A DNA stretch of 64,000 nt from Escherichia phage naam, in the sequence record MN850630.1. The stretch is one strand, 5' to 3'. Below the pieces are notes generated by a model that searched no databases, had not been told where the DNA came from, and was given only the letters and a program-made list of their open reading frames with translations. Each line of letters opens with the position of its first letter. Position 1 is the stretch's first letter. Below, in pieces: positions 7,981 to 23,892 of the stretch. The translations under genes were made by a program, and so were the position numbers.

Positions 7981-7988
7981 CCTTTAAA

Positions 7989-8015
7989 GCCCCGCTTCGG
8001 CGGGGTTTATTTTTA
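7989..8015 (+). terminator. Rho-independent terminator, UUCG-tetraloop hairpin plus U-tract
   Basis: gccccgc-ttcg-gcgggg followed by tttatttttat; same hairpin family as 2481 and 34148. Confidence 0.8.
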
Positions 8016-8085: not shown

Positions 8086-9576
8086 GTGGCTAAGTATGGA
8101 TTGACAGAGGCTGGTTTCGTTATACCAACCCTAAATGACCTAATCGTTGAAACTAAGCAAAGCCTGATCCGTGCTTTTGGCGAAAACTTCAACGTACAGA
8201 GTAACTCCGTTGCAGATAAGCTGACCACTATCTTCAACGAGCGAGAGTATCAACTTATTCTTATGGCAGCATCTGTATACGCATCACAGACGCTGTATGG
8301 GGCAGAAGGTATTTACCTGGATGAGCTTCTTGGAAGACAGGGTATTTACCGAAGAGGCCGTTCTAAATCATCAGGTACCTGCCAGTTGACAATCAACACA
8401 ACTGTGCCGTACAATATGATTTATGATTCCAAAACTTATACGCTGGACAGTGGCAACTTTGTTCTTAGCAACGATGTGCAAGTAGCAGGGAATCTTATTG
8501 CTCACAGAATAAATGCTCCAGACCTAAGGATTGGTAAATACAACTTTCAAATTACCAACCAGACAGATGGAAGTATCAAAACAAAAAGTCTGGTTTTAAC
8601 AGATAAGTCTCTGGACTCTTCTGATTTGCCAAGCTTTTACGGAGAGATTAAGCAATTCATTGTCGATAATACAACCCTGTTGAACGACGATTTGATTCAG
8701 GTCGATATGTTGACAGGAACGTTGTGGATAGGGTACAATTCGAATCTTGATCAAGTTGGACTTAATAGTAGAGTAGATTTCAGAGTATCCCCGATTGTAG
8801 GGGAAAGAACTATCACCCTGGATGTTATCGCTAACGAGGCTGGTGAGCTGTCAAGAGAGGCAGAAACCGTGACAACAATGTCACCTACTCCCAGTGGATT
8901 TATCAAGCTTACCAACCGAGAAAGATTCAATGAGGGCAGGGATGTTGAGAAAGACTCAGAGTATCGCTTAAGAGCTTCCAGCACAAAACAGTTAACATCT
9001 AAGGCTACCCGTCCTGCAATCCTTAGCGCTGTAAGCGAGGTGAAAGGTGTTGAGAAAGTGAGGGTGTTCTCCAACAACACCGATAAAACTGATGCTAAAG
9101 GTATACCTCCTTACAAGTTCCAAGTGGTTGTGTTTGGTGGTGCAACGGAGGACATTTGCCAAGCACTTTACCAAACTATAGCCTGTACTAACAGGACTTA
9201 TGGTAATATTTTCTACGATGTCACTACATCTGATGGTCAAACTGAAAGAATTTATTACTCCAAGGCAAATACCTACCGCCTAGATGTAAGAATTACCTAC
9301 TCCGGTGCCGCACTTTCCACAACCGAAAAAGATGCCATTGTAGAGGCTCTTTTGCAGGTTGTTAACGGACTGGATGTTGCAGATACGTTGTATAATATCC
9401 AATTGGTCGGCGCTGCATCTGCTGCTGTATCAATAGGCAGATTTAATAGACTGGTAATTCAAGTTAAACCAGTAGGAGCTTCTGATGAAGCTTACACTAC
9501 AAACGATATTGTTGCGAACATGACCGAGGTGTTTGACCTCGACGAAAGTAATATAACTTTCCAACAAACTATTTAA
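8086..9576 (+). CDS. Hypothetical virion structural protein (tail/baseplate region)
   Basis: GTG start with RBS ggagg; 496 aa; located in the tail module. Confidence 0.55.
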   Translation: MAKYGLTEAGFVIPTLNDLIVETKQSLIRAFGENFNVQSNSVADKLTTIFNEREYQLILMAASVYASQTLYGAEGIYLDELLGRQGIYRRGRSKSSGTCQLTINTTVPYNMIYDSKTYTLDSGNFVLSNDVQVAGNLIAHRINAPDLRIGKYNFQITNQTDGSIKTKSLVLTDKSLDSSDLPSFYGEIKQFIVDNTTLLNDDLIQVDMLTGTLWIGYNSNLDQVGLNSRVDFRVSPIVGERTITLDVIANEAGELSREAETVTTMSPTPSGFIKLTNRERFNEGRDVEKDSEYRLRASSTKQLTSKATRPAILSAVSEVKGVEKVRVFSNNTDKTDAKGIPPYKFQVVVFGGATEDICQALYQTIACTNRTYGNIFYDVTTSDGQTERIYYSKANTYRLDVRITYSGAALSTTEKDAIVEALLQVVNGLDVADTLYNIQLVGAASAAVSIGRFNRLVIQVKPVGASDEAYTTNDIVANMTEVFDLDESNITFQQTI

Positions 9577-9587
9577 GGCGGCGAGAT

Positions 9588-10274
9588 ATGGCAGAGATTA
9601 AGTCGGATGTTAACCACATCCACACTCTGCCAGATTTTGTTCAGGGAGGTCTTGACTACCTGCCTGGAGATTTTCTGGCTGAGAAGGTTAATTTGGTCAC
9701 ATTCTTAACCGTGTACCTTAAAAGGTTGGAGGATGTTGATAAGATGCTGGTAGGTTTGGCTGAAGGAAGATTGCTTAACAATGCCAGCGGAAGATACCTT
9801 GACGAAGTTGGTAATCAACTTGGTATTCTTAGGAATGGACTTTCAGATGCTGATTTTCGTGCCACACTAATTATTCAGCAGGCCGCAGCATCAAGGGGCG
9901 GGACTCGCGAAGATGTCATCTCCACCTTGCGACAATTGTTCGGAAGAAACAATTTCGATACGTGGAAAGGAGACAACTTCAGGTTTGACATAAATATTAG
10001 AAAAACTTGCTTTGACATATTGCAGTCTATCGATCAGATCTTAGATATGCTACCATTGCCTTGTCATTTGCGTCTTACAGAATCGCAAGGGCAAGCTTTT
10101 GGTTTTGAAGGGGACCATACAGCTCTTGGCTTCGGATCAGTGTGGGAAGAAAACCAATTCGGAGTTGGTGGGCTGGCTACTTTGCTGTATGTTCCTGACG
10201 TAAGACCTGATTGGGACACCACAACCATTTATTGTGAAAGTATTACAGTAAACGCAACTAGACAGGAGGGTTAA
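9588..10274 (+). CDS. Hypothetical structural protein
   Basis: ATG with RBS; 228 aa; translationally coupled to the next gene (ATG overlaps stop). Confidence 0.55.
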   Translation: MAEIKSDVNHIHTLPDFVQGGLDYLPGDFLAEKVNLVTFLTVYLKRLEDVDKMLVGLAEGRLLNNASGRYLDEVGNQLGILRNGLSDADFRATLIIQQAAASRGGTREDVISTLRQLFGRNNFDTWKGDNFRFDINIRKTCFDILQSIDQILDMLPLPCHLRLTESQGQAFGFEGDHTALGFGSVWEENQFGVGGLATLLYVPDVRPDWDTTTIYCESITVNATRQEG

Positions 10275-12346
10275 TGGCAACAGCTATTTTTAAACCTTAC
10301 CGTGATTACTCTACAATGGCTGCACGGTTTCATTACCGCACAGTTCAGGATACTGCCGTTCCTGGTAGGGATTATAATCATGTTGAGGGTGATGTAACTA
10401 TCCCAATTGGGGCAACCAGTATTGAGATCCCAGTGGAAATTGTTGACAAATTACCCAACAGGTTGCCAAGAAGCTTCTTTATGGAGTTTTCATCAAAATC
10501 TCAAGGGGTGATGATTGGAACACAAAGGGCGAAATGTACAATAGTTTCAGATGAGAATCTTGACAGGATATCTTGGGATACTGTCGAGGAGAGAATGTTT
10601 CACCCAAGATATTGGGTTACAACTACCCAGCAGACTGAAAGCACCTGTATTGTTGCAGATAATAACTGTTGTATTAACCGTTTAGTGTCAAGAACATATG
10701 GAGGTATGGCTGGGTGCATTTGGGAAACAGTTGACAAGTATGACCATTTCGGTATTGGGTTTGATGATCATTATGAGATGAGAAATACCAAGCTTTGGTT
10801 CAGAATGTCAATAACCAACGCCAGCAACTTCTCCACTCCTGAAAAGATGATTATGACTGTAGACCTTGTTGATGGCACAATCATCTATGTTCCTTTAGCT
10901 CAATATGCTGTCAGCATCTCAGAGGATAAGAATGTTGCAGAAATTCATATTGATTTCGAGGACTGCGTCGGGATGGACCAGAACAACAATATGATGGGTG
11001 TTGATCCTCGACAGGTGAGAAGGATTTTAATACCGCTTATGCCTAAAGATTGGGTAAGCAATAGCACAAACCCAAGAACGGAAAATGTAGAGTGTGAGTT
11101 GCGCCTAGATCTGCTTCAGCCAGACACAGGCTGGAAAATGATGCAACTTAACAATATTCAGGTGAAAGAACACGACGTTGGGATCTGCACAGCATATGAC
11201 GATATGTGGAACGTGTCTCCTTTAAGGGTGTTGAACAATATCAAGCGTCTGGGCTATACCGGAACCATAAACCATTATGTTGGTATGAGTCATTATTATG
11301 ACTACACATGGTCAGGAACTCAATGGTCTATAAACAGAACAGGAGCGCTAAACGCTGCAGCTTATAAATGGCATGATGATTTTATGTACAATGCCAAACG
11401 ACATAACTTCGACGTTATGCAATCTGTAAGTTTTGAGCTTTTCAGCGATGCCTGCCCGTTGGAATGGACCCAAAGAGACTGGAACGATAACTACGCTAAA
11501 ACAGGGTATACACCTTGTAGCTACCTCCTGTCTCCAACCATTGAAGAGGGTATGAATTTCCTTACTGCAGTATTTAAGAATTTTGCATCAGCCGCTATGA
11601 GAAACAACCTGCCAGTGATTATGCAGGTTGGTGAACCGTGGTGGTGGTACAATACCGATACTCGTAGACCTTGTATTTATGATTACCCTACAAAGCAGGC
11701 GTTTTATGATGAGACAGGTGAGTATGCATTAGATATTGGGACTATTGACGATCCTAAAACTGGCGGTGTTTACGACAAGTATGTAGCATTTTGTCGTGGT
11801 AAGCTTGGCGCTCGTATTGCGGCTATTTCAAAGGCAGTAAAGGCACACGCTGCATCAGCTCAGATGACAGCTTTGCTGTTTTTCCCAACCATTATGGAAA
11901 CCGAGCTTACGCAAAAGCTGAACCTTGCTGACCAATATAAAAAGGAAGCAGGTGCTCTTGATTTCTTCTGCACTGAGTGCTACGATTGGGTGATGCAGGG
12001 AGGTATTGAAAAGGCAAAAGAGTCTGTAAACATACCTATCGTTAAGTTAGGTTGGCAACCGTCTGAAATACAATACCTTGCAGGGTTCGTTCCTAGTAAA
12101 GAGCTTGCTCCGGTATATGGCTACGACCCAACTAGGAATTACCAAGAATTTTTATGGAGATGTATTTGCGGAAACATGGCAACTATAGAGTATAGATACC
12201 CTGAGGTAAAACAGTATGTATGGGCATATCCGCAAGTAATGTCTGACAGCATCACTGTTACCGCTAGAGATTCTACCGTGCTTCATATGGGGCAGGTTGC
12301 TCTGAAAGGGTATGTAGAAGATGTTGTCCCGCCAGACTTCTCATAA
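10274..12346 (+). CDS. Hypothetical large tail-associated protein (possible proximal fibre or tailspike component)
   Basis: 690 aa ORF with RBS aggagg; directly upstream of the side-fibre/Tfa cassette. Confidence 0.55.
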   Translation: MATAIFKPYRDYSTMAARFHYRTVQDTAVPGRDYNHVEGDVTIPIGATSIEIPVEIVDKLPNRLPRSFFMEFSSKSQGVMIGTQRAKCTIVSDENLDRISWDTVEERMFHPRYWVTTTQQTESTCIVADNNCCINRLVSRTYGGMAGCIWETVDKYDHFGIGFDDHYEMRNTKLWFRMSITNASNFSTPEKMIMTVDLVDGTIIYVPLAQYAVSISEDKNVAEIHIDFEDCVGMDQNNNMMGVDPRQVRRILIPLMPKDWVSNSTNPRTENVECELRLDLLQPDTGWKMMQLNNIQVKEHDVGICTAYDDMWNVSPLRVLNNIKRLGYTGTINHYVGMSHYYDYTWSGTQWSINRTGALNAAAYKWHDDFMYNAKRHNFDVMQSVSFELFSDACPLEWTQRDWNDNYAKTGYTPCSYLLSPTIEEGMNFLTAVFKNFASAAMRNNLPVIMQVGEPWWWYNTDTRRPCIYDYPTKQAFYDETGEYALDIGTIDDPKTGGVYDKYVAFCRGKLGARIAAISKAVKAHAASAQMTALLFFPTIMETELTQKLNLADQYKKEAGALDFFCTECYDWVMQGGIEKAKESVNIPIVKLGWQPSEIQYLAGFVPSKELAPVYGYDPTRNYQEFLWRCICGNMATIEYRYPEVKQYVWAYPQVMSDSITVTARDSTVLHMGQVALKGYVEDVVPPDFS

Positions 12347-12358
12347 TCAGGAGATAAA

Positions 12359-13399
12359 ATGTCAAAACCTAGTTTTCCATTAGAGATTTGGGCAGAGGAG
12401 GATCAGGTTCTGCCTAACACCCACAGACAGAACAGGCTACGCCCGATTGATGATTTGTGGAGAAAAGGTTGGGATCTTGGTCAAAAGCCCTCATGTGAAG
12501 AACTTAACTATATTTTCAATATGCTCGGAACTTGGGCAAAATACATTGCTGACGAGCAGATCCCCGCTCAAGAAGGCCGTTATCTGGTACGTGATAATAA
12601 CTTGAGTGATCTTTTGAACATTCCTGTTGCCCGTAGAAACCTTGGGATTATTACTAGGGAAGAGGCAGACGCCAGGTATGTAAAAGTTACAGGTGATACA
12701 ATGACAGGCCCATTGGGTTTGCAACGTATCAACTTTAAAGCTGCCGAGACAGATAAGGCTTGGATAGAGACAACTATTGGCCCAGATAAGACAACTCTCG
12801 ACTTTGGGTTAAGTGATAATACTGGGGCGTTTGATGATGGTGGCACATCTACAATAGATGCGTTTCGTTGGAGATTCCAGCCAACTCAGCCGGATATTAA
12901 TCCGGAGTTCACTTTGATGTACCTTAACGCGATCACGGCTAACCGTGCGCTGTTGAAAGTGGTAGGCAATGTTGAAGTTGTCGATAACATGAGGTGCAAT
13001 AACCTTACTATCAGCAATACCGCAACATTCACCAACTGTAATGTGGCCAGTCAGTTGACGGCTGGGTCAGTATATGTTAATGGTGGTGCAAGTTGTGACA
13101 GTATGGTTGTAAGAAGCCAGCACTGTGTTGTAGGTAACAGAAATGTGGTTCGCTCCGTGAATGGAGTGACGGCTAACGGTAACGGTGATGTAACGATCAC
13201 TATCCCGCAGACAGGTGTGCAAGACATCAGAATCGGTGCAAGACTTGTGGACGGCGTTTCTGAATCTCCAATCCGCAACGGATACGTTGTCACAGGCTGG
13301 CATTTCGGTGACAAAAAAGAGATGCGTGGTTCAACCTACTGGGCAGGACCTTTACAAAAACTTGTAAATGGTCAATGGATCACTGTTAATTATGCATAG
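12359..13399 (+). CDS. Side tail fibre protein (distal, receptor-binding part), copy 1
   Basis: Followed by a Tfa-family gene; paralog of 14414-15457 with conserved N-terminus and C-terminal YWAGPLQKLVNGQWITVNYA. Confidence 0.7.
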   Translation: MSKPSFPLEIWAEEDQVLPNTHRQNRLRPIDDLWRKGWDLGQKPSCEELNYIFNMLGTWAKYIADEQIPAQEGRYLVRDNNLSDLLNIPVARRNLGIITREEADARYVKVTGDTMTGPLGLQRINFKAAETDKAWIETTIGPDKTTLDFGLSDNTGAFDDGGTSTIDAFRWRFQPTQPDINPEFTLMYLNAITANRALLKVVGNVEVVDNMRCNNLTISNTATFTNCNVASQLTAGSVYVNGGASCDSMVVRSQHCVVGNRNVVRSVNGVTANGNGDVTITIPQTGVQDIRIGARLVDGVSESPIRNGYVVTGWHFGDKKEMRGSTYWAGPLQKLVNGQWITVNYA

Positions 13400-13413
13400 A
13401 TCGGAGGACTAGC

Positions 13414-13998
13414 ATGAAAATACTTCAAGAGTTTAAACTTTACCAACCGGGATCTGGCGAATACCACTCCAACAAGGAAACCAAGGAGCTGACCCCTCAA
13501 GAGGTCGAGGATTACACCGCATACACTGGGTATTTTTTACGTAATGATGATGGTGATTGGTATGTGCAGTCACGAACATTACGACAAGAAAATCCAGGGT
13601 GTATTTTCCTACTTGTTGACGAGAAGGGAATTCTTAAGACATCTACAGAAGAACCTGATGCCTTATGGCCTGCTCCAGGTCTTCGTGTGGTTATCGCCAA
13701 AAAAGAAGAGGTACCAGAAAACATTATGCTTCACCACGACGCTTTGCGTTTAGTTGGTGATAAATTTGTCACAGACAATGAATTCTTTGTTCAACAGGCA
13801 GAGGGTGTCATAGAGACAGAACTTGCTTGGGCTACTGCTAGAATTGGTGCCTATCAAGACATGATTGACCTTGAATATGATCTTACTGATGACCAGAAAC
13901 GTAACATCAGAGATTTGAAAATGTACAGGGTAAAACTTCTTGAAATAGATACATCTAAAGCCCCTGACATTTTCTTCCCGGAGCGACCTACCCTCTAA
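13414..13998 (+). CDS. Tail fibre assembly protein (lambda Tfa family)
   Basis: 194 aa; C-terminal YRVKLLEIDTSKAPDIFFP matches the conserved lambda Tfa C-terminus (YRVLLNRVDTSTAPDIEWP) as I recall it. Confidence 0.75.
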   Translation: MKILQEFKLYQPGSGEYHSNKETKELTPQEVEDYTAYTGYFLRNDDGDWYVQSRTLRQENPGCIFLLVDEKGILKTSTEEPDALWPAPGLRVVIAKKEEVPENIMLHHDALRLVGDKFVTDNEFFVQQAEGVIETELAWATARIGAYQDMIDLEYDLTDDQKRNIRDLKMYRVKLLEIDTSKAPDIFFPERPTL

Positions 13999-14009: not shown

Positions 14010-14324
14010 GTGGAGTTGGATTTGGCGGCATTGTACGGTATCTGCATGGGTACCGTTGTCCCGATCTGTGTATGGGCTTTCAACCAGTGGCACACCAAAT
14101 GGAAAGGCATTTCCAAGAGGTTGGATGAGCTGGAGAAAGACCTCATCTTAGTGAAAAACAGTATGGTTACAAAAGATAAACTTGATTCCGTTATAGAGAC
14201 CCGGTTAAGCAAGCTAGAGGCCGATATTAACGACCTTAAGCAGGATGTCAGGACAGATGTCTCCGGCATCAGAGCCGATGTACAAAAGATTTTGCACATG
14301 CTCGTAGAGCATAGTAAAAGGTAA
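14010..14324 (+). CDS. Hypothetical membrane / coiled-coil protein
   Basis: GTG start with RBS aagaggagg; N-terminal hydrophobic segment then coiled coil. Confidence 0.5.
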   Translation: MELDLAALYGICMGTVVPICVWAFNQWHTKWKGISKRLDELEKDLILVKNSMVTKDKLDSVIETRLSKLEADINDLKQDVRTDVSGIRADVQKILHMLVEHSKR

Positions 14325-14333
14325 ACAAAGGTC

Positions 14334-14366
14334 AGAACGGAAAGGACTCCGTTCTTGCATTTTGTT
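14334..14366 (+). terminator. Candidate intrinsic terminator
   Basis: agaacgg-aaaggact-ccgttct hairpin followed by tgcattttgtt. Confidence 0.5.
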
Positions 14367-14413
14367 CCCTAAAGTGTTAAAATAGTCCTAAGGAATTTTC
14401 TCAGGAGAACGTG

Positions 14414-15457
14414 ATGACTAAACCAGTTATCCCTCTTGATATTTGGGCCAATCAGGATGTTGTGCTTGAAAATACGGGAGAGTTGAATAAGTCTCAACCA
14501 AAAAAGGAAGAGAGATTGAAAGGTTGGGATATGACACAAAGAGTGGCATGTGAAGTTGTTAACTTTGAACTTCACATGCTTTCTGCGTGGTTAAAGCATT
14601 TAACAGAAGATGTTGTCCCAGGATGGGATAATAGATTCTTAAGGGTCACTAATAATCTAGCAGACGTTCCAGACAAAGCTGCTGCACGTCAAGTTCTCAA
14701 TGTATACTCGCCTGAAGAAATGGACGATCTGTATGTTGACAAGTCTGGAGACATAATGACTCAGACTCAAACTTTAGGCCTTCAAAGAATCGAGTTTGCA
14801 TCTGCGTCAACAGACAATGCGGCAATATATACCACCATAACTCCAGACAAGACGACGATGGACTTCTGGATTATGGACAACATCGGTGGTGCTGACGGCA
14901 CAGACCTTGATGATCCTTCTCACCAAATAGACGGGTTCCGTTGGAGATTTCAACCTTCTGGTGGGCAGCCTGTGTTTTCGGCTATGAAGCTCAATGCTAT
15001 AACTGCCAACCGTGCAAGACTGGCTATCCAAGGAAATCTTGAATGCAACGATGCAAAAAGTTCCTCTGCAAATGCCAATGCGGTCACGATACCAAGAGCC
15101 ACTGTTAACGGACAACAATCCTGCGGAAGCGCTCAAATAGGTGGAAGAGTTGATTGTAACGATGAAACCGTTAGAGGCCAATATGCAACCGTTGGTGGAA
15201 GAAACGTGGTCCGCAGGGTAAACGGTAACAGCGCAGACGGTAGTGGTAACCTTACTGTCCCTATGCCCAGTAGAGGGGTTGACGATGTAAGGATAGCGAA
15301 CCGTTTCAAAACCACCTACAGAGAGTCAAGAGTCTACCCTGGACATGTGATGTGCTCTGGTAACTACGCTTATAAACACCCTTATCAAGGTGATTACTGG
15401 ACAGGTGCTATCCAAAAACTTGTAAACGGTCAATGGATCACTATATCTTATGCTTAA
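14414..15457 (+). CDS. Side tail fibre protein, copy 2 (paralog, no cognate Tfa immediately downstream)
   Basis: ATG at 14414 with RBS aggaga (track start GTG 14411); paralog of 12359-13399 with diverged central region. Confidence 0.7.
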   Translation: MTKPVIPLDIWANQDVVLENTGELNKSQPKKEERLKGWDMTQRVACEVVNFELHMLSAWLKHLTEDVVPGWDNRFLRVTNNLADVPDKAAARQVLNVYSPEEMDDLYVDKSGDIMTQTQTLGLQRIEFASASTDNAAIYTTITPDKTTMDFWIMDNIGGADGTDLDDPSHQIDGFRWRFQPSGGQPVFSAMKLNAITANRARLAIQGNLECNDAKSSSANANAVTIPRATVNGQQSCGSAQIGGRVDCNDETVRGQYATVGGRNVVRRVNGNSADGSGNLTVPMPSRGVDDVRIANRFKTTYRESRVYPGHVMCSGNYAYKHPYQGDYWTGAIQKLVNGQWITISYA

Positions 15458-15468
15458 AAAGAGGGTAA

Positions 15469-15735
15469 ATGAAACTAACTCAGTTTTTATGGGGACTGGT
15501 TGCGGCATCTGATGACCCTACGAAAGTATCCCAATCTAAGCTATGGTCGAACATAGGCATGGCGGTGATGACTGGGGTGTTTATTCATATGGGGTATAAT
15601 GATACGCTTCCTGAATGGTATGCGTGGATATACGCGCCTTCAGTAGCTTGCCCCCAGCTTATTAGCAAATTCATCTCGCTCCGGTGGGGTTGCCAGCACC
15701 CTGACCACGTTAAAAACGAAGAGCAAAAAGCTTAA
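15469..15735 (+). CDS. Hypothetical small membrane protein
   Basis: 88 aa with one hydrophobic segment; RBS agaggg. Confidence 0.45.
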   Translation: MKLTQFLWGLVAASDDPTKVSQSKLWSNIGMAVMTGVFIHMGYNDTLPEWYAWIYAPSVACPQLISKFISLRWGCQHPDHVKNEEQKA

Positions 15736-17490: not shown

Positions 17491-17499
17491 TATATCTAA

Positions 17500-17526
17500 C
17501 CGCTCCTGACGGGGCGGTTTTCTTAT
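17500..17526 (+). terminator. Rho-independent terminator
   Basis: ccgctcc-tgac-ggggcgg hairpin (one G-U pair) followed by ttttcttat. Confidence 0.65.
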
Positions 17527-17538
17527 CTGGAGAACACA

Positions 17539-20500
17539 ATGCTTCCAATCCCTTTGCTAAAACTTGGTCGTCATTTCCTCGATAAGAGGGGTGGAATTAA
17601 GGAACTTGCTGTTCTGTCATACCCAATAGACAACAGTGATGGTACAAGCAACACAGTATCCTATGTAAATAGCTTAGCTATACTTTTTGATGATGGTCAG
17701 CTTAATATTACTGGCTATAATAGGTTCGGAGAGTGTCGGACTGGAGATCTTGATACAATAAACTATCCTAATGAGGCAGCTTGGAACGTAGACCATGTTT
17801 GGAGAGCTGACCGTGCATTTGTAATCCGCACATTCGATAATAAATTTTTCTATATTGGTTGCACAGCTGGTCTTATCGGATCGGAGGCAGCAGGTGGAAA
17901 CGATGTTTGTGTCAGAGAGTGGACACCTTTGCCGGAACAGATCGTAACAGGGTTGCATTTGGACACCCATCCTGAGAGACTTGTTGAAGTAATGGGTGGC
18001 GTAAACAATACAGTGTGGGTAATTGCTGCACCAGAGGCTGATGGTATGCTTCACCTGTACGGCTCTGGCAATAATACTTACGGCTCTCTTCATGTTGACA
18101 AAAGTCAACACGCTACTCCAGTTAAGATCGGTGAAACATCTGAAAGTCCAGAGACAGGTCCTTGGAAAAATCCAAGAATTAATTGTGAAGTTCATGACAA
18201 CTCGGTTATTTTTGGTGGTCCTAACGGATTCTGGATTGCAGGTTACGATTTCTTAAGAAATAACAGCAAAAACACACTAGTTTATCCAGCCGAGCATGTG
18301 ACTCTTGACCAGTTTAAAGGCATCCCGGTGGGCGAGACATGGAAAGGGTTCATGTGTGGACCTAATGGTGCAATTATAGCCACAGAAAGGATGCACAAAC
18401 CTGATGACCAACAGCTTGTTAATGTGTTTTATGGTCAGGATGTTTGGGGTGACGACACGTGGAGAAGCCTTAACATCACCTATACCCATGAAGTAATTAT
18501 GGCTCGTGGATACGGCACAAGTGGCATTTTCTTCAATAATGGCACCAAACAGTATCGTGGCTTCTCTCGCAATCTGTGCAATGATATTGGTGCACAATCT
18601 GCAAACAACAGTCCTAGGGCTAATTTTATTCACTATCAGGCTCTGGCTACGGCTAAATACGTCGAGCAACGGATGCCAGTAAGCTGGACAGAAAGTGTTT
18701 ATTTCCAGGGTATCCACAGGGAAGGTTTCTTAGGCACATTCTGTGTGGTAAATGGAAAGCTTTGGTGGTCAGGAATACCACGTGGTAGTTTTTCAGGATC
18801 TAATAACCTCTTTGGCGGCAGACTTAACAGCCAAGGGTTCACAGAGATTCCGGAGAATTGGTATAAAAATGTCCCGGTAGATAGCTGGGGTATCGAAGAC
18901 ATCTTTGATGTCAATGGTGTGAGCAATGTTAGCAACATTTACATCGGAGATACTGTCAAGATGAAATTGAAACCTCAGCCGGAGGGTGCTACGTTCATTA
19001 TTGACAAGATTGAGTTGGTAAATGCTGCAGGCACTGTTGTTACAGATGCAAACTATCAGTTCTCCACTAACTGGAACCATGGTGGTGCTAACGAAGTTGT
19101 GGTCACCCAGTATAACCGTAACATCAACAGACGTGGTTTGTATTCTATCAAGATCACCTACCATGACAAGCATGGCACTGGAAGAACCTATACGACAAGG
19201 ACTTTGAACTGGAACACTATAGTTCCTGCGTATCCGTCCAACGGCAAGTGGCATACCGTTGGTAGAAACAAGCAGTTCCATGTTAACGATACTGTATACT
19301 TTGGGCTGAATGGGACCCAGCCTGCAGTAGAAGGGGATACATCGTATATGGTCAGACTCCACAGAATGGATGCTGGATCAGTCACTTATGATGTGACCCA
19401 AGAGATCTACGATCAAAGACGCGCCACGTATGACAATATTGTGAAAACACAAGCCTTGTGGGAGTTCAATCCTAATGGCAAGGGTGGTAAAATGTTGCAG
19501 GTTAATGAGCAGAACGGAACGTCGTTGACTGTTCACGAACACCCAGACCCTTGGCCTGATCCTGGAAAACCTCACCCGGGAGCTCGTACACTGAAAATTG
19601 TCAGCCATGATGCAGGATATTTCGGAATACGCTGGGAAGCTACAGTAAGATATGTCGACGGGACAACAAACAACATAGGGATTACACTTGGCGGCACTAG
19701 TGAAGATAACTCGCTGAAAATTGCCTACACGCCCAGAGGTATCTCTATTGATAATATGGATGTTGTTCGCAATGGTTACGGCGATGTGAATGTCAAAGTT
19801 ACTCTTGGCGAACATCTTGGTGGGGAAAGGATCATCATGTATGCCTTTGATCATGATCCACGCACCAATGGAACTTATGCAAATCAGGCATGGAGTTACC
19901 TGATAAATGCACCTGAGCCGAATACTAAAGAGTTCTACTATGGTATGAAGCGAGATGTGTGCAAGAAAACAGGAACACATGACTGGATTGCTATCTGCGT
20001 TAAAGATGAGCGCACAGCTTGGGATGAACCTGTTAACAGATGGTTCATAGGTATTCCTACCAGAAGTGATAAGTATGTCGCAGAATATATTGTATGCATG
20101 GGTGGTACCAACCTGAACATGTGTTGGAACGAGGATGCAAACAAATACTCTGATTATGACTATATGAGGGATTACTCTTGTAATTTGTGGTTTAACCAAA
20201 CTACAGGTTACCCTCCAAGACAGGCGAGAGTAAACCCTGCAATCTTCACAGACACGCAGGTTTTCTTGACAAAACAGGCCAACGAGGTTCAGACCTTCAA
20301 GAATAAATACGATCCTAACAAGTGGTTCTACAACTGTTACGGCGCATTTTTCTGGGGACCTGGTGAGTTACCTGGTGGGGGATCTTGCTTGAATGAGGCA
20401 ACTTACGCAAGTGACTACATCATGGGGCAGGTCAAGAAGTATAAGATAATCCCCGGTCCTGAGACTTTGGGCAATGCCGTTGACCCTTATATCATCATGA

Positions 20501-23175
20501 CTGCACTGAGATCAAACATGGATGGGACATCCATGTCCATGCAAATTCCGGTAACAAACGGATACAAACGTGTTGTGATGATCATTAAGTGCGACCTGAT
20601 AGGTAAACAAGTTCTTGCAGAAAACGGGACATCCACACATCCTTTTGAGATCGCTCTGCACTATCAGTTTGCTGACTCACCTTTTGCAGGGGATAAGAGA
20701 ATATCTGATACAGACGCACAGCGTTGTAAGAAAGTCTTGTTGGGTGCAGGTTGGTGGTGGTATGAGTTTGATTTAACAGACAAATTCACCGACACGTCTA
20801 AAGTTGTAACAGGACTTCGTCTAGACCTTGGCGAGAACATGCACAAAGCTGTTTGTGATGGCACCTATGGTGACCCTACAATATACCTAAAATATGTTTC
20901 TTTTGAGCATCCGGAAGATGTTGTCTACGGTCCAAAACTGAGATTGTTTGGCAGCTGGATTGCAAAAGATAGGGTAGGCATGGGTAAGAAGGTAAGAGGG
21001 TTCTTGGTTGATGCAGGAACAGAAGACATGCTGGTTAATGCAGTATGGCCTGAATTACCTGGGACTCAGTGGGACAACTCAGCCAAATCTATAAACTGGT
21101 TTAACATTCATAGGGCCATGTGGACCACTAACTGCTACTTGTGGAGAGAGCTTAACGATCAGGCCTTTGGATTCAGCGATGGTAGAAGGATGGCGATCAT
21201 TTGCTGGACAACACTGCAAAGATGTTATGACCATGACTATGAGATTGGGGGCAGGGCATGGAAAAATATCAGGGATAGAATCATAACCAATTTTGCAGAC
21301 GACAACGGTGGTGGAGCACATAACTTTGGCACAAGCCGACTCATCCATTTGAACGGATCCTCAGCCTACAAGAAAGAAGGTTACTCTGGGTCTATGATCG
21401 AGTGGGGTCTGGTGAAAGATGCTCGCGTATTGATGGGCCAGCAACTTGCTGCCGCAATAGGTCCCAGCGCAGTGCAGTCGGTTAAACCAGCGTGGTTCGA
21501 TATTCCATTGTGGTCACCCGGAACACCGGGAACTGCTGCAATCAACCCTACCACTGGGGATCTAGAAATCTCCTGGGAGGACTTGAAGCAGGTCGGCGGT
21601 TGGGACAAAACAGGGTACCAGGTTCAGTGGTGGAGAGCTGATGGATCTTTAGCTGCTGATGAGTTTGTTAAGGACAATTTCTACACTATGTCCTCTGCAA
21701 AAGCACAGCAATTATTTGGTCAGGCAACTCCGTCAACGATCACCATGTCTATGTGCTGTAAAGACAACAGGACTGGAGCTTTGGGGCCAAGGGTTGCTAA
21801 AGTTTTCTCAGGTATTAAATGGAATCTACCTGTCCAAAGTATTTCATGGAAGCAAATAGGTGATAACAAGCTGCTGGTTACCCCTGCCTGTCAGTTCAAC
21901 GCAACTCTTAACGTTGATCCTGCTGTTGCGGCAAACTCAGCTAAAGCTTCTGACTTCTCTGTGTCTAACACTGCTATGGCAGATGTGAGGAAGATTGACA
22001 CGCTGAACGCCAGAATTACCTGTAAAAACACTTATGGCACATTCCAGATCATCAACAACTTCACAGATGCTGATTCTAAGGTAGTGAGGACAGCAAGCCA
22101 GACTTTGAGTTTAGGAACTCTGGCCTATGCGGCCCTGATCACTGAACAGTCGGCAACACTCCAAGGAGGTGGTGTAGGCAAGTCCATTACAACACCTGTG
22201 TGGAAGCCAAATGAGTGGGTTGTGTTTGATTTGACTGTGGACTTCTCCAGCGATAATAACTGGACATGGGTAAGGAATTGTTTGTCACAGTTGATGGGCG
22301 GTCCAAGCTCCGTTAGTGATAGTCACGACTCTACTGACCCGAGTGTGTTCCAGGTAGGTAAAACTCACCCAGAGACTGGAGAAACGTTGCCTGACAGGAA
22401 GTATGCTTTGGTTTGCATCTCTTACGGGAAGGCAGATGTCACCTTCTCAGGGACACACACTTATAACGGAACCTACAACTTCTCAAGGAAGTATAGTCTC
22501 AAAGCAGGGAACATTATAGACGAGGTTGGTGTGCTGTATAATCCGGGCAACGGCATAGGGATTGTGGGTGGTAAACTGCAGATGCAGGAACCTTCTATTA
22601 CCCCTTCCAACGTATCCGGGATTAGAAAGACTTGGGAAAGTAGTAATACCAACATTGCAACAGTGGATGCCACCACAGGACTGGTAACATTTAAAGCTAT
22701 TGGGAATGTCACCATAAAGTTTGTAGTTACAGATGATGCAGGGCGCAAAACGTCTTCAACATCTTTTACTGTCAAACAGATGGCACCACAGTGGAGAATG
22801 TGGATAGGTACAGCAACAAACGGGGCATACCCTAATCCGGCAGGTACTTCTGGTATGAAGACTTTCTCTACAAGCAAACCGATGGAGTACGGCAGCGGTC
22901 CTAAGGTAGGGCAGATGGTGTACTTTGGTGCGTATATTCCTGAAATTATAGGGCTTCCTAGAAGTCAGCTTCAGTTGCTGTTTGGGGCTGGTGTTGACGA
23001 TCTTGCCACTTTCGGGTATAGCGACAACATCGAGGCTGCAAGGAGTTCAGGATGGGTAGGGTTCAGAATGGAGTCTGGAAAGGAAGGCAGGATTCTAGGG
23101 ACAGCCTCTATAGGTGTTATGTTCCCTGGTGACCAGCAGTATCGTCTAGAAGCCTACGCAACCTTTTCTCGTTAA
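17539..23175 (+). CDS. Giant (1878 aa) putative virion host-recognition protein with Big_2-like Ig domain near the C-terminus
   Basis: Single uninterrupted ORF; segment ITPSNVSGIRKTWESSNTNIATVDATTGLVTFKAIGNVTIKFVVTDDAGRKT resembles bacterial Ig-like group 2 domains; ends at a bidirectional terminator. Confidence 0.65.
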   Translation: MLPIPLLKLGRHFLDKRGGIKELAVLSYPIDNSDGTSNTVSYVNSLAILFDDGQLNITGYNRFGECRTGDLDTINYPNEAAWNVDHVWRADRAFVIRTFDNKFFYIGCTAGLIGSEAAGGNDVCVREWTPLPEQIVTGLHLDTHPERLVEVMGGVNNTVWVIAAPEADGMLHLYGSGNNTYGSLHVDKSQHATPVKIGETSESPETGPWKNPRINCEVHDNSVIFGGPNGFWIAGYDFLRNNSKNTLVYPAEHVTLDQFKGIPVGETWKGFMCGPNGAIIATERMHKPDDQQLVNVFYGQDVWGDDTWRSLNITYTHEVIMARGYGTSGIFFNNGTKQYRGFSRNLCNDIGAQSANNSPRANFIHYQALATAKYVEQRMPVSWTESVYFQGIHREGFLGTFCVVNGKLWWSGIPRGSFSGSNNLFGGRLNSQGFTEIPENWYKNVPVDSWGIEDIFDVNGVSNVSNIYIGDTVKMKLKPQPEGATFIIDKIELVNAAGTVVTDANYQFSTNWNHGGANEVVVTQYNRNINRRGLYSIKITYHDKHGTGRTYTTRTLNWNTIVPAYPSNGKWHTVGRNKQFHVNDTVYFGLNGTQPAVEGDTSYMVRLHRMDAGSVTYDVTQEIYDQRRATYDNIVKTQALWEFNPNGKGGKMLQVNEQNGTSLTVHEHPDPWPDPGKPHPGARTLKIVSHDAGYFGIRWEATVRYVDGTTNNIGITLGGTSEDNSLKIAYTPRGISIDNMDVVRNGYGDVNVKVTLGEHLGGERIIMYAFDHDPRTNGTYANQAWSYLINAPEPNTKEFYYGMKRDVCKKTGTHDWIAICVKDERTAWDEPVNRWFIGIPTRSDKYVAEYIVCMGGTNLNMCWNEDANKYSDYDYMRDYSCNLWFNQTTGYPPRQARVNPAIFTDTQVFLTKQANEVQTFKNKYDPNKWFYNCYGAFFWGPGELPGGGSCLNEATYASDYIMGQVKKYKIIPGPETLGNAVDPYIIMTALRSNMDGTSMSMQIPVTNGYKRVVMIIKCDLIGKQVLAENGTSTHPFEIALHYQFADSPFAGDKRISDTDAQRCKKVLLGAGWWWYEFDLTDKFTDTSKVVTGLRLDLGENMHKAVCDGTYGDPTIYLKYVSFEHPEDVVYGPKLRLFGSWIAKDRVGMGKKVRGFLVDAGTEDMLVNAVWPELPGTQWDNSAKSINWFNIHRAMWTTNCYLWRELNDQAFGFSDGRRMAIICWTTLQRCYDHDYEIGGRAWKNIRDRIITNFADDNGGGAHNFGTSRLIHLNGSSAYKKEGYSGSMIEWGLVKDARVLMGQQLAAAIGPSAVQSVKPAWFDIPLWSPGTPGTAAINPTTGDLEISWEDLKQVGGWDKTGYQVQWWRADGSLAADEFVKDNFYTMSSAKAQQLFGQATPSTITMSMCCKDNRTGALGPRVAKVFSGIKWNLPVQSISWKQIGDNKLLVTPACQFNATLNVDPAVAANSAKASDFSVSNTAMADVRKIDTLNARITCKNTYGTFQIINNFTDADSKVVRTASQTLSLGTLAYAALITEQSATLQGGGVGKSITTPVWKPNEWVVFDLTVDFSSDNNWTWVRNCLSQLMGGPSSVSDSHDSTDPSVFQVGKTHPETGETLPDRKYALVCISYGKADVTFSGTHTYNGTYNFSRKYSLKAGNIIDEVGVLYNPGNGIGIVGGKLQMQEPSITPSNVSGIRKTWESSNTNIATVDATTGLVTFKAIGNVTIKFVVTDDAGRKTSSTSFTVKQMAPQWRMWIGTATNGAYPNPAGTSGMKTFSTSKPMEYGSGPKVGQMVYFGAYIPEIIGLPRSQLQLLFGAGVDDLATFGYSDNIEAARSSGWVGFRMESGKEGRILGTASIGVMFPGDQQYRLEAYATFSR

Positions 23176-23184
23176 CAAGGGGGT

Positions 23185-23219
23185 AAATAAAAAAGGGGCC
23201 GTTTGGCCCCTTTCTTTTT
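23185..23219. terminator. Bidirectional intrinsic terminator between convergent gene blocks
   Basis: A-tract, ggggcc-gttt-ggcccc hairpin, T-tract; sits between the + strand giant gene and the first - strand gene. Confidence 0.85.
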
Positions 23220-23223
23220 ATAG

Positions 23224-23424
23224 TTAGTAATACTCCCAACATGCCCCATCTTCAGACGGCTTGACGCGCTTACCTTTATGGTCAACATAGGTATAGCCAC
23301 AACCTTCACAAATAACAGGTGCTGCATAGCCTTCCTTCCACTGATCCTCAGTGATCAGACCTTCCAAATCTTTGCAGTCAAAGCCAAACAACTCTTCAGA
23401 GCAATCTTTACAAAAATCAGCCAT
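23224..23424 (-). CDS. Small zinc-ribbon protein
   Basis: 66 aa with CxxC...CxGC cysteine pairs. Confidence 0.55.
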   Translation of the reverse strand: MADFCKDCSEELFGFDCKDLEGLITEDQWKEGYAAPVICEGCGYTYVDHKGKRVKPSEDGACWEYY

Positions 23425-23427
23425 TTC

Positions 23428-23835
23428 TCAGTCCTCGCATTTAACAAATTTTTCTACAGATCCACCAAGCACAGCTTGTTGTTTGATGGCACTTTCTTCA
23501 TCATAGTGGATAGACTTATGTTCCGTACCTCCAAACTTACCTGTGTGGAAGGTGTGCACCCAAATCTCTTTAGGAAGGGATTTATTCTCTTCTTCCACCA
23601 ACTCCCACATTCCCCATAAGTGATCTGTGATATCTCTGATGAAATATCCCTCGCCGAGGTTTGTATTCACACTATAAGCTGATTCGTGATCTCCACAAAT
23701 ATAACGGAAGGCGGTGTACTCTTTCCCTGGCGTGAAGTGGGTATCCATTAGTATGGCTGTTAAAGAATTAGGGTCTCGAAAGCCCAAGAACTTTAGTTTA
23801 ACAATTTCGACATTTACATCTGCAAGATTATCCAT
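23428..23835 (-). CDS. Hypothetical protein with weak metallophosphoesterase-like motifs (D-x-H, GDHE)
   Basis: Track start TTG 23892 lies inside the promoter; internal ATG at 23835 has RBS agaggag and is 20-30 nt downstream of the -10. Confidence 0.5.
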   Translation of the reverse strand: MDNLADVNVEIVKLKFLGFRDPNSLTAILMDTHFTPGKEYTAFRYICGDHESAYSVNTNLGEGYFIRDITDHLWGMWELVEEENKSLPKEIWVHTFHTGKFGGTEHKSIHYDEESAIKQQAVLGGSVEKFVKCED

Positions 23836-23863: not shown

Positions 23864-23892
23864 ATTATATATAGATCTGGTGGTGGTGTCAA
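23864..23892 (-). promoter_or_regulatory. Consensus sigma70 promoter on the minus strand (TTGACA-17-TATAAT)
   Basis: Minus-strand reading aagcTTGACAccaccaccagatctataTATAATtctc. Confidence 0.7.

What the first reader, a model, noticed from the sequence alone, without database searches (positions are those of the whole stretch)
17539..23175. 1878-aa single-ORF protein at the end of the tail module with an Ig-like (Big_2) domain
This is the largest gene in the window and has strong coding character throughout, but I recognise only a Big_2-like segment near the C-terminus. It is the last gene before the bidirectional terminator, a position often held by host-range or decoration proteins. Its size suggests a multi-domain adhesin or depolymerase.
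Basis: partly seen in the sequence, partly recalled or inferred. Interest (0 to 1): 0.45.

Follow-up and report, generated by a model that had tools for sequence, protein, structure and literature searches.

The report
Giant accessory tail protein of rV5-like phages
This 1878-residue gene is the already catalogued "gp27" of rV5-like E. coli phages, a huge and probably non-essential tail appendage with a propeller-shaped front end, a long string of antibody-like domains and an uncharacterised core; its existence is ordinary, but nobody has tested what it does.

Summary
Window 17539-23175 (+) is one intact 1878-codon ORF, the largest in the window. It has a Pfam Big_2 domain at aa 1682-1733 and is the last rightward gene before a bidirectional terminator.

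The gene is not new. It is the orthologue of rV5 gp27, 94-99% identical in more than 100 Vequintavirus genomes. Those records call it "Ig-like domain-containing protein" or "lateral tail fiber protein with intimin domain".

What I can add:
- aa ~20-445 is a diverged RCC1-like beta-propeller. Its first ~200 aa are shared with the shorter last tail gene of phAPEC8-like and PVP-SE1-like phages.
- The C-terminal ~550 aa is a chain of Ig/FN3-like domains.
- aa ~836-1330 is a strongly conserved Cys/Trp-rich core with no detectable relative anywhere.
- In every lineage checked, a terminator-like hairpin lies just upstream of the gene.
- At least three isolates carry frameshifts, yet dN/dS is about 0.07-0.10.

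Best reading: a low-copy, dispensable, adhesin-like tail appendage anchored by its N-terminus. No depolymerase fold was found. Function and virion location remain untested. Interest is low to moderate.

The parts
17498..17526 (+). Terminator-like hairpin (AACCGCUCC-UGAC-GGGGCGGUU) plus U-rich tail, between the gp28-type fibre gene and this ORF
   Evidence: Scan hit. Folds at -16.7 kcal/mol, z -3.8. A hairpin occupies the same position, with four unrelated stem sequences, in Vequintavirus, the distant 1930-aa family, phAPEC8-like phages and PVP-SE1. It is annotated as a terminator in phage Alma and phAPEC8.
17529..17534 (+). Shine-Dalgarno GGAGAA, 4 nt before the ATG
   Evidence: Read directly from the sequence.
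17539..23175 (+). CDS of 1878 aa, orthologue of rV5 gp27 / Bas58_0041 (phrog_15684)
17596..18873 (+). aa ~20-445: diverged RCC1-like beta-propeller (about seven blades). The first ~200 aa form the module shared across genera and are the putative virion anchor.
   Evidence: Pfam WD40_RLD E 7.6e-5 and RCC1_2 E 0.0085. phrog_4219 E 1e-7 and phrog_11922 'tail protein' E 3e-28. The short relatives pass the RCC1 cut-off, with WD40_RLD over aa 40-360. Foldseek on the low-confidence model returns RCC1-like domains (HERC1, RCC1, UVR8, RCC2, HERC2) among its best matches, with an S-layer protein ranked first. The only PDB sequence hits of the family profile are HERC1 and UVR8, at a non-significant E ~0.1. 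The region is 70-80% identical in the distant family.
18886..20043 (+). aa ~450-835: all-beta region, about three Ig-like sandwiches with one poorly modelled stretch (aa 565-735)
   Evidence: AF2 secondary structure, with pLDDT 55-82 for aa 450-565 and 737-800. Weak Bact_surface_Ig-like hits in 12 of 16 homologues. This region is replaced in P0015.
20044..21528 (+). aa ~836-1330: conserved Cys/Trp-rich orphan core, predicted helical at pLDDT below 30, interrupted by the beta-sandwich listed next
   Evidence: Many invariant residues across sequences 42-77% identical. No hit in PDB sequences, Pfam, PHROGs or NCBIfam, the 5.8e9-protein database or, for aa 1-1200, the 1.84e9 cluster representatives. 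AF2 result.
20446..20913 (+). aa ~970-1125: beta-sandwich inserted in the core; moderately variable between alleles
   Evidence: AF2 pLDDT 70-84. dN 0.15-0.19 against FV3 and JeffSchatz. Only 12-30% identical in part of the distant family.
21529..22545 (+). aa ~1331-1669: FN3-like domain plus two Ig-like sandwiches (stalk)
   Evidence: AF2 pLDDT 60-87. Weak fn3 hit. Foldseek matches tandem Ig chains: NUP210, cadherins, S-layer SbsB/Sap, PrgB and the SU10 tail.
22546..22788 (+). aa ~1670-1750: Big_2 (intimin-like) Ig domain
   Evidence: Pfam Big_2 at aa 1682-1733. Weak intimin hits in PDB sequences (E 0.005) and in NCBIfam (E 4.9e-6 but far below that model's cut-off). AF2 pLDDT 76-92.
22789..23172 (+). 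aa ~1751-1878: C-terminal beta domain, the most variable part within the genus and the putative distal tip
   Evidence: Part of the phrog_215 match, E 5e-47. Not alignable at DNA level in JeffSchatz and DrSchubert. dN 0.18-0.28 and dN/dS 0.37.
23189..23221 (.). Bidirectional intrinsic terminator (AAAGGGGCC-GUUU-GGCCCCUUU, flanked by an A-run and a T-run)
   Evidence: Equivalent hairpins lie downstream of the gene in all relatives.

Best explanation
The ORF encodes the Vequintavirus gp27-type giant accessory tail appendage. Shown: it is a conserved late gene under purifying selection, and it closes the tail-fibre module. Its N-terminal ~445 aa is RCC1-like, and the first ~200 aa of that region is the only part shared with the equivalent last tail gene of other genera. 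Its C-terminal third is a chain of Ig/FN3-like sandwiches. Inferred: the N-terminal propeller docks the protein onto a conserved virion partner. That partner would be the baseplate periphery or the adjacent gp28-type fibre. The sandwich domains form a thin, flexible stalk some tens of nanometres long. The variable sandwich inside the orphan core and the variable C-terminal domain make weak, reversible contacts with host surface glycans. These contacts would improve adsorption on some hosts without being the essential receptor step. The terminator-like hairpin directly upstream means the gene is transcribed mainly by read-through. That would keep its copy number well below that of the other fibre proteins.
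For: Identity and context: full-length orthologues at 94-99% in more than 100 genomes. [quoted passage not shown] Synteny is conserved in relatives only 40-58% identical.
N-terminal anchor idea: aa 1-207 is 30-39% identical to the N-terminus of phAPEC8 gp086 (891 aa), PVP-SE1 gp40 (604 aa) and the 4MG and GAP31 proteins. In phAPEC8 and PVP-SE1, the two records whose annotation I examined, this is the last gene after the gp28 homologue, and the rest of the protein differs. Conservation falls from the N- to the C-terminus.
RCC1-like fold.
Ig chain.
Low expression: a hairpin plus U-run lies 20-25 nt before the start codon in four lineages, with unrelated stems. The rV5 virion MS found only 3 peptides and 9 spectra for a 208-kDa protein.
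Accessory role: there are frameshifts in ime (2-nt deletion), Alma (1-nt deletion) and JES2013 (11-nt deletion), and a ~4.7-kb internal deletion in an IMG/VR contig. Even so, dN/dS is 0.07-0.10 overall.
Receptors: the essential Vequintavirus receptors are already assigned to other proteins. These are the NGR/ECA glycan via the deacetylase fibre and the LPS core via the short fibres.
Against: There is no direct evidence of where the protein sits in the virion. The rV5 MS identification is weak: the peptides are non-tryptic, score poorly, and are listed beside unlikely virion proteins. The paper's text does not list gp27 among the detected tail proteins. Both AlphaFold models have low confidence (mean pLDDT 47.8 and 53.7), so domain boundaries are approximate and the core is unmodelled. 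This protein's own Pfam RCC1 scores are below the curated cut-offs. The orientation (N-terminus on the virion) is inferred only from conservation patterns. The frameshifts could be sequencing errors. The upstream hairpin has not been shown to terminate transcription.
Confidence: 0.5

Rival explanations
1. It is a classical homotrimeric lateral tail fibre subunit, forming the distal part of one of the three lateral fibres, as the BASEL annotation implies. It would be needed for recognising a variable primary receptor.
For: It is annotated 'lateral tail fiber protein with intimin domain'. It lies in the fibre locus and shows moderate allelic variation. Ig/FN3 strings do occur in some trimeric phage fibres; the SU10 tail protein is among the fold hits.
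Against: No coiled coil, triple beta-helix, collar or intramolecular chaperone domain was detected. No fibre chaperone gene follows it, only the terminator. A closed RCC1-like propeller and beads-on-a-string sandwiches are typical of single-chain proteins. Several isolates that grow on E. coli K-12 carry frameshifts.
Confidence: 0.2
2. It is an enzyme-bearing appendage. The conserved Cys/Trp-rich core (aa ~836-1330) would be a new glycan-degrading or glycan-modifying domain, such as a depolymerase or deacetylase, presented on an Ig stalk.
For: The core has many invariant Asp/Glu/Trp/His/Cys residues across sequences only 42-56% identical. That level of conservation exceeds what a spacer would need. 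It carries an inserted variable beta-sandwich that could act as a carbohydrate-binding module. Neighbouring fibre genes of this locus do carry glycan-active domains, for example the NCTSP TIM barrel in the 690-aa protein, and the BASEL paper discusses this.
Against: Pfam, PHROGs, NCBIfam, PDB sequences and two very large protein collections show no similarity to any enzyme family. Profile comparison shows no similarity to the two neighbouring fibre proteins. The model of this part is unusable, so there is no fold evidence either way.
Confidence: 0.15
3. It is a Hoc-like decoration protein of the capsid, neck or sheath rather than a baseplate appendage. In that case it would bind mucus or surfaces non-specifically through its Ig-like domains.
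For: The C-terminal 288 aa match phrog_215, 'structural protein with Ig domain', which is filed under head and packaging. Fold hits include Ig-bearing major head and major tail proteins and Hoc. Non-essentiality is typical of decoration proteins.
Against: The gene is in the tail-fibre operon, far from the head genes. Its conserved N-terminal module matches phrog_11922 'tail protein', and the relatives are annotated as tail proteins. The PHROG category is only an annotation label.
Confidence: 0.1
4. It is not a virion component at all. It would be a late-expressed protein released at lysis, for example one acting on host or neighbouring cell surfaces.
For: The MS evidence in rV5 is marginal. 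Expression appears to be attenuated by the upstream hairpin.
Against: There is no signal peptide or other non-structural domain. RCC1-like proteins were found by MS in virions of related phages W70 and GAP32. The gene is co-oriented and contiguous with the fibre genes in all lineages.
Confidence: 0.05

Closest known systems
rV5 gp27 and its orthologues (phrog_15684; BASEL Bas58_0041 'lateral tail fiber protein with intimin domain'; RefSeq 'Ig-like domain-containing protein')
   Same: The same gene: 1876-1878 aa, 92-99% amino-acid identity, same position and same flanking terminators.
   Different: Nothing substantive. The domain map, the RCC1-like N-terminus, the orphan core and the upstream hairpin are not in those annotations.
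phAPEC8 gp086 (891 aa) and PVP-SE1 gp40 (604 aa) 'tail protein': RCC1-like propeller followed by Big_2 domains
   Same: The same genomic slot: last gene after the gp28 homologue, between two hairpins. The N-terminal ~200 aa are homologous (30-39% identity), the propeller is RCC1-like, and both contain Big_2.
   Different: They are 1000-1300 aa shorter. They lack the orphan core and most of the sandwich domains, and their C-terminal domains are unrelated (one relative has DUF285).
RCC1/BLIP-II-superfamily virion proteins of other phages (W70_237-239 in Septuagintavirus; GAP32_001 and its paralogues in Rak2-like jumbo phages)
   Same: RCC1-like repeats in proteins detected in virions; function unknown; they are named 'chromosome condensation protein' purely from the domain label.
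   Different: They are encoded elsewhere in the genome and are much smaller. Homology beyond the repeat type was not tested here.
Ig-like (Big_2) accessory domains on phage structural proteins, such as T4 Hoc and the C-terminal domain of lambda gpV (Fraser et al. 2006, cited from my own knowledge and from the reference lists seen)
   Same: Big_2 or Ig-like modules displayed on the particle surface, generally dispensable, proposed to bind cell-surface carbohydrates weakly.
   Different: In those proteins the modules are single domains appended to a head or tail-tube protein. Here about ten sandwich domains, a propeller and an orphan core make up a free-standing 208-kDa protein.
Bacterial Big_2 adhesins (intimin/invasin)
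   Same: One Big_2 domain is detectably similar to an intimin Ig domain, at E 0.005 against PDB sequences and E 4.9e-6 against NCBIfam, the latter far below the model's cut-off. Both have a beads-on-a-string design.
   Different: There is no beta-barrel anchor, LysM domain or C-type lectin tip. The 'intimin domain' label reflects one shared Ig module only.

Membership tests
Vequintavirus gp27 orthologue group (phrog_15684) | Full-length, collinear similarity to rV5 gp27 | tested here: met
   phrog_15684 matches aa 1-1878 of 1878, E 0. Megablast gives 100% coverage at 94-99% identity in 107 records. rV5 ORF 27 is 1878 aa and 208,334 Da.
Vequintavirus gp27 orthologue group (phrog_15684) | Same genomic position: after the gp28-type fibre gene and before the divergent early region | tested here: met
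   and in distant relatives.
Big_2 domain proteins (PF02368) | Score above the Pfam gathering threshold | tested here: met
   34.0 bits against a cut-off of 22.8, aa 1682-1733; 38.5 bits on the isolated segment.
RCC1-like beta-propeller (PF00415 / PF13540 / PF25390) | Pfam score above the curated cut-off in this protein | tested here: not met
   WD40_RLD 22.6 bits against 150; RCC1_2 16.3 bits against 22. The E-values (7.6e-5 and 0.0085) are suggestive only.
RCC1-like beta-propeller (PF00415 / PF13540 / PF25390) | Homologues of the same N-terminal module pass the RCC1 repeat cut-off | tested here: met
   P0019, P0020, P0022, P0023 and P0024 score 22-31 bits against a cut-off of 21.7, with WD40_RLD over aa ~40-360. 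The same holds for phAPEC8 gp086.
RCC1-like beta-propeller (PF00415 / PF13540 / PF25390) | Seven-bladed propeller fold | tested here: inconclusive
   On a model with pLDDT 47.8, Foldseek returns RCC1-like domains among its best matches (HERC1 RLD3 at E 1e-4, ranked second after an S-layer protein; also RCC1, UVR8, RCC2, HERC2), all with low TM-scores. The only PDB sequence hits of the family profile are HERC1 and UVR8, at E ~0.1. The seven G-x-N-x-x-G-like motifs were read by eye only.
Classical trimeric phage tail fibre or tailspike | Trimerisation and shaft elements: coiled coil, triple beta-helix, collar, or a C-terminal intramolecular chaperone (Peptidase_S74) | tested here: not met
   No such Pfam or PHROG domain was found. 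The models show sandwich domains, not a fibrous shaft.
Classical trimeric phage tail fibre or tailspike | Homotrimeric state | not testable with these tools
   No multimer prediction or experiment was available.
Phage depolymerase or tailspike enzyme | Recognisable catalytic fold: parallel beta-helix, sialidase, lyase, or a GH or esterase domain | tested here: not met
   No hit in Pfam, NCBIfam, PHROGs, PDB sequences or the fold searches. The core at aa 836-1330 could not be modelled, so a novel fold is not excluded.
Virion structural protein | Detection in purified particles | tested here: inconclusive
   The rV5 supplementary MS table lists ORF 27 with 3 non-tryptic peptides, 9 spectra and 3.1% coverage. 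It is not listed among detected tail proteins in the paper's text.

The most novel reading that the evidence does not exclude
gp27-type proteins are not fibres in the classical trimeric sense. They would be single-chain, low-copy 'giant adhesin' appendages. In this reading an RCC1-like propeller serves as an interchangeable virion-docking module across several myophage genera. The lineage-restricted core of about 500 aa would be a previously undescribed glycan-binding or glycan-processing fold, and dosage would be set by a conserved upstream attenuating terminator.
Probability: 0.25. Interest if true: 0.55.

Novelty: already known. Interest (0 to 1): 0.3.

Why it matters
rV5-like phages are among the most often isolated E. 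coli phages, and they are used in biocontrol and therapy cocktails. Which genes build their many fibres is still called "far from clear" in the BASEL paper. The largest gene of that locus has no assigned function. Suppose it really is a dispensable accessory adhesin with a conserved docking propeller and swappable distal parts. Then it would be a natural site for host-range engineering or display. Its orphan core could also be a new carbohydrate-active fold. As it stands, this finding re-identifies a known gene and adds a better domain map.

Tried and rejected
1. Two AlphaFold2 jobs (aa 1-800 and aa 741-1878) used alignments of only 16-17 sequences. Mean pLDDT was 47.8 and 53.7. The core (aa 836-970 and 1125-1330) came out at pLDDT below 30, so no fold could be assigned.
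2. A second homologous-protein search with aa 1-800 returned only two close fragments. A profile of aa 800-1335 returned only one fragment of the same family.
3. Exhaustive phmmer of aa 1-1200 against 1.84e9 representatives gave 8 hits. None lay beyond aa ~200 outside the protein's own family.
4. A profile of the core against PDB sequences gave zero hits even at E 10.
5. Profile comparison (hhalign) of the core with the two neighbouring fibre proteins, the NCTSP TIM-barrel protein and the gp28 homologue, showed no relationship.
6. I considered a clan GH-A reading of the invariant 'QANEVQ' and 'SMIEWG' motifs. I dropped it because both lie in segments predicted as helical, at low confidence, and nothing else supports a TIM barrel.
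7. A BFVD fold search returned only fragments of the same gene from genomes where it is split, plus generic Ig-rich proteins.
8. The phi92 cryo-EM papers cannot locate this protein. phi92 has only a 202-aa Big_2 remnant (gp152) and gp153 at this position.
9. The phiTE cryo-EM paper does not mention an RCC1-like or propeller protein.
10. A literature search for RCC1 propellers in phage tail fibres found nothing relevant.
11. An IMG/VR scan with the N-terminal profile found only 10 loci, all in the same phage lineages.
Full report
OBSERVATION. Window 17539-23175 (+) is a single ATG-initiated ORF of 1878 codons with no internal stop. It is the largest ORF in the 64-kb window; the next largest is 1279 aa. 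A GGAGAA ribosome-binding site lies 4 nt upstream. Pfam detects one domain above threshold, Big_2 at aa 1682-1733 (E 2.8e-8, 34 bits against 22.8). All ORFs immediately downstream are on the opposite strand, and GC skew flips near 24 kb. The hairpin at 23192-23213 folds well on both strands (-18.0 and -19.7 kcal/mol) and has a U-run on each side.

WHAT GENOME AND WHAT GENE. The ORF is 94-99% identical at DNA level, over its full length, to 107 phage records. Nearly all of them are Escherichia Vequintavirus (rV5-like myophages). It is the orthologue of rV5 ORF 27 (1878 aa, 208,334 Da), which the rV5 paper's supplementary table annotates as a conserved hypothetical protein with Big_2. RefSeq calls it "Ig-like domain-containing protein". 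The BASEL collection calls it "lateral tail fiber protein with intimin domain". [quoted passage not shown] PHROGs has a dedicated family, phrog_15684, that matches end to end. The upstream genes in the window form the expected baseplate and fibre module:
- a J-like 1279-aa protein;
- the wedge and baseplate proteins;
- the 690-aa N4-gp65-like NCTSP TIM-barrel fibre;
- two paralogous short fibres with a chaperone;
- the 581-aa gp28-type fibre.
The gene itself is thus already known and annotated, but its function has not been tested.

ANATOMY, N-TERMINUS. aa ~20-445 is a diverged RCC1-like beta-propeller. The evidence is as follows:
- On this protein, Pfam WD40_RLD gives E 7.6e-5 and RCC1_2 gives E 0.0085. 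Both scores are below the curated cut-offs.
- phrog_4219, "regulator of chromosome condensation", gives E 1e-7.
- The shorter homologues of the same module pass the Pfam RCC1 cut-off and match WD40_RLD over aa ~40-360.
- Foldseek with the poor model (pLDDT 47.8) returns HERC1 RLD3, RCC1, UVR8, RCC2 and HERC2 RLD2 among its best matches, behind an S-layer protein ranked first.
- A profile of the module searched against all PDB sequences returns only HERC1 and UVR8, at a non-significant E ~0.1.
By eye there are seven G-x-N-x-x-G-type blade junctions, near aa 59, 107, 175, 235, 299, 341 and 420. That count is inference.

ANATOMY, REST OF THE PROTEIN.
- aa ~450-835 is all-beta, with about three sandwich domains. 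Two of them are modelled at pLDDT 55-82.
- aa ~836-1330 is a strongly conserved Cys/Trp-rich core. Dozens of residues are invariant across sequences 42-56% identical. It could not be modelled (pLDDT below 30, predicted helices). It is interrupted by a well-modelled beta-sandwich at aa ~970-1125 (pLDDT 70-84).
- aa ~1331-1750 holds one FN3-like and three Ig-like sandwiches. The last of them is Big_2, at pLDDT 76-92.
- aa ~1751-1878 is a C-terminal beta domain.
Foldseek against the PDB matches the C-terminal half to chains of tandem Ig domains: NUP210, cadherins, S-layer SbsB/Sap/EA1, PrgB and the SU10 tail. No coiled coil, beta-helix, collar, chaperone or enzyme domain was detected by any library.

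HOW RESTRICTED IT IS. The full-length family has 15 clusters at 90% identity. An exhaustive HMMER scan of aa 1-1200 against 1.84 billion cluster representatives gave eight hits. Outside the family itself, only aa ~1-200 matched, to proteins of 588-891 aa. A profile of aa 800-1335 found nothing in PDB sequences. It found nothing outside the family in the 5.8-billion-protein collection. IMG/VR holds only 10 loci with the N-terminal module. The middle ~1000 aa is therefore lineage-restricted.

COMPARATIVE CONTEXT. The N-terminal ~200 aa is 30-39% identical to the N-terminus of phAPEC8 gp086 (891 aa), PVP-SE1 gp40 (604 aa) and proteins of 4MG, GAP31 and others. In phAPEC8 and PVP-SE1, the two whose annotated regions I examined, that gene is the last of the tail-fibre module. 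It directly follows the gp28 homologue and precedes a bidirectional terminator. Those proteins have the layout propeller, then Big_2, then an unrelated C-terminus; one has DUF285. Full-length relatives only 40-58% identical keep the same synteny. Conservation declines from the N- to the C-terminus. The propeller is 70-80% identical in the distant family, whereas the last 450 aa is 12-44% identical. phi92 has only a 202-aa Big_2 protein and a 295-aa ORF at this position. The published phi92 cryo-EM work therefore cannot place this protein.

SELECTION AND DISPENSABILITY. Pairwise dN/dS against three Vequintavirus alleles is 0.07-0.10, with a mosaic dS pattern that indicates recombination. Two regions are the most variable. 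One is the C-terminal domain: it is not alignable at DNA level in JeffSchatz and DrSchubert, with dN 0.18-0.28 and dN/dS 0.37. The other is the inserted sandwich at aa 976-1050, with dN 0.15-0.19. Three isolates carry frame-disrupting deletions at different, non-homopolymer sites:
- ime, 2 nt at nt 3155;
- Alma, 1 nt at nt 624;
- JES2013, 11 nt at nt 130.
Other records annotate the gene in pieces. One IMG/VR contig has a ~4.7-kb internal deletion. If these disruptions are real, the gene is dispensable for propagation on laboratory hosts while being maintained in nature.

EXPRESSION. A GC-rich hairpin followed by a U-rich tract lies at 17498-17526, 20 nt before the start codon (-16.7 kcal/mol, z -3.8). 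An equivalent hairpin occupies the same position in all four lineages examined, with four unrelated stem sequences. It is annotated as a terminator in phage Alma and phAPEC8. No room is left for a promoter between the hairpin and the ORF. I infer that the gene is transcribed by read-through and made in smaller amounts than the upstream fibre proteins. This fits the marginal MS signal in rV5: 3 non-tryptic peptides, 9 spectra and 3.1% coverage, listed beside improbable virion proteins. The paper's text does not name gp27 among the detected tail proteins.

MECHANISM PROPOSED. I favour a low-copy, non-essential, adhesin-like tail appendage (confidence about 0.5). The conserved RCC1-like propeller would dock onto a conserved virion partner, either the baseplate periphery or the adjacent gp28-type fibre. 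The sandwich domains would form a thin flexible stalk. The variable inserted sandwich and the C-terminal domain would make reversible contacts with surface glycans. The essential receptors of these phages are already attributed to other proteins: the NGR/ECA glycan through the deacetylase fibre, and the LPS outer core through the short fibres. [quoted passage not shown] A chain of about ten sandwich domains plus a propeller and a core could have roughly that appearance, but this link is speculation.
Shown: gene identity, synteny, domain types at both ends, selection pattern, hairpins.
Inferred: orientation, location, copy number, binding function.

RIVALS.
(a) A classical trimeric lateral fibre (0.2). 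This is the existing annotation, but no trimeric shaft or chaperone features were found, and frameshifted isolates still grow.
(b) A novel enzyme in the orphan core (0.15). It is attractive because the core is conserved far more strongly than a spacer needs to be, but there is no homology or fold evidence.
(c) A Hoc-like decoration of the head, neck or sheath (0.1). The support is the phrog_215 category and fold hits to Ig-bearing head and tail proteins. The gene's operon and its N-terminal 'tail protein' module argue against it.
(d) Not a virion protein (0.05).

COMPARISON WITH KNOWN THINGS. The gene is a member of the rV5 gp27 orthologue group, with all tests met. It shares a docking-type N-terminal module with the phAPEC8 gp086 / PVP-SE1 gp40 tail proteins. 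It belongs to the loosely defined set of RCC1-superfamily virion proteins, reported by MS in W70 and GAP32 and labelled "chromosome condensation protein" only by name transfer. Its Ig modules resemble the accessory Big_2 domains common on phage particles. The "intimin domain" label reflects a single Ig module. It fails the sequence and fold tests for a depolymerase and for a classical trimeric fibre.

VERDICT. This is a real feature, correctly described. It is an already known and widely annotated gene, so novelty is "already known". The added value is fourfold: a domain map, the RCC1-like conserved N-terminal module, an orphan core of about 500 aa with no relative in very large databases, and a conserved upstream attenuator-like hairpin with evidence of dispensability. 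Interest is 0.3. It would rise if the orphan core proved to be a new glycan-active fold, or if the propeller proved to be a general docking module.

Noticed in passing
window 17498-17526; L005/L006 ~7972-7995; L002 ~8962-8990; L003 ~8962-8990; L013-L022 upstream of the match: A GC-rich hairpin plus U-run lies 20-25 nt before the start codon of the last tail gene in four phage lineages. The four stems are unrelated in sequence, so the structure is conserved without sequence conservation. The gene is thus enclosed between two terminators.
   Followed up: partly
L007 (ime) gene nt 3155; L008 (Alma) nt 624; L009 (JES2013) nt 130; L019 (IMG/VR contig) whole gene; L012 (DrSchubert) CDS end: There are independent frame-disrupting deletions of this gene in several sequenced isolates, and a ~4.7-kb internal deletion in a metagenomic contig. 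DrSchubert's annotated CDS is about 58 aa shorter than its allele partner. These are either real loss-of-function variants or sequencing or assembly errors.
   Followed up: partly
GenBank MG065635, MG065644, MG065654, MG065655, MG065661, MG065666, MG065677 and others (hits H1-H3, H31, H34): Fifteen to sixteen unannotated records named 'Campylobacter phage' carry this E. coli Vequintavirus gene at 95-99% identity. The closest match to the window is one of them. The host label looks doubtful.
   Followed up: no
window 23864-23892 (minus strand): There is a perfect sigma-70 consensus promoter (TTGACA, 17 nt, TATAAT; 12 of 12). It reads leftward through two small ORFs (23428-23835 and 23224-23424) into the same bidirectional terminator.
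   Followed up: no
L004 (phi92) 13321-13929 and 14096-14983: phi92 has only a 202-aa Big_2 protein (gp152) and a 295-aa ORF without an RBS (gp153) at this position. This looks like a remnant of the RCC1-Big_2 tail gene.
   Followed up: partly
L006 15189-16298 (minus strand): A distant Vequintavirinae-like phage contig encodes a 369-aa protein with a YadA_anchor (trimeric autotransporter) domain just downstream of the gp27 homologue.
   Followed up: no
window 15469-15735: An 88-aa predicted membrane protein gene (phrog_1322, 'moron' category) sits inside the tail-fibre module, between a short fibre gene and the gp28-type fibre gene. It is conserved in PVP-SE1 and phi92.
   Followed up: no
window 10274-12346: The 690-aa fibre protein has a Calx-beta domain plus the N4-gp65-type NCTSP N-terminal domain and TIM barrel (E 2.5e-80). 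This is the protein the literature links to recognition of the NGR/ECA glycan.
   Followed up: no
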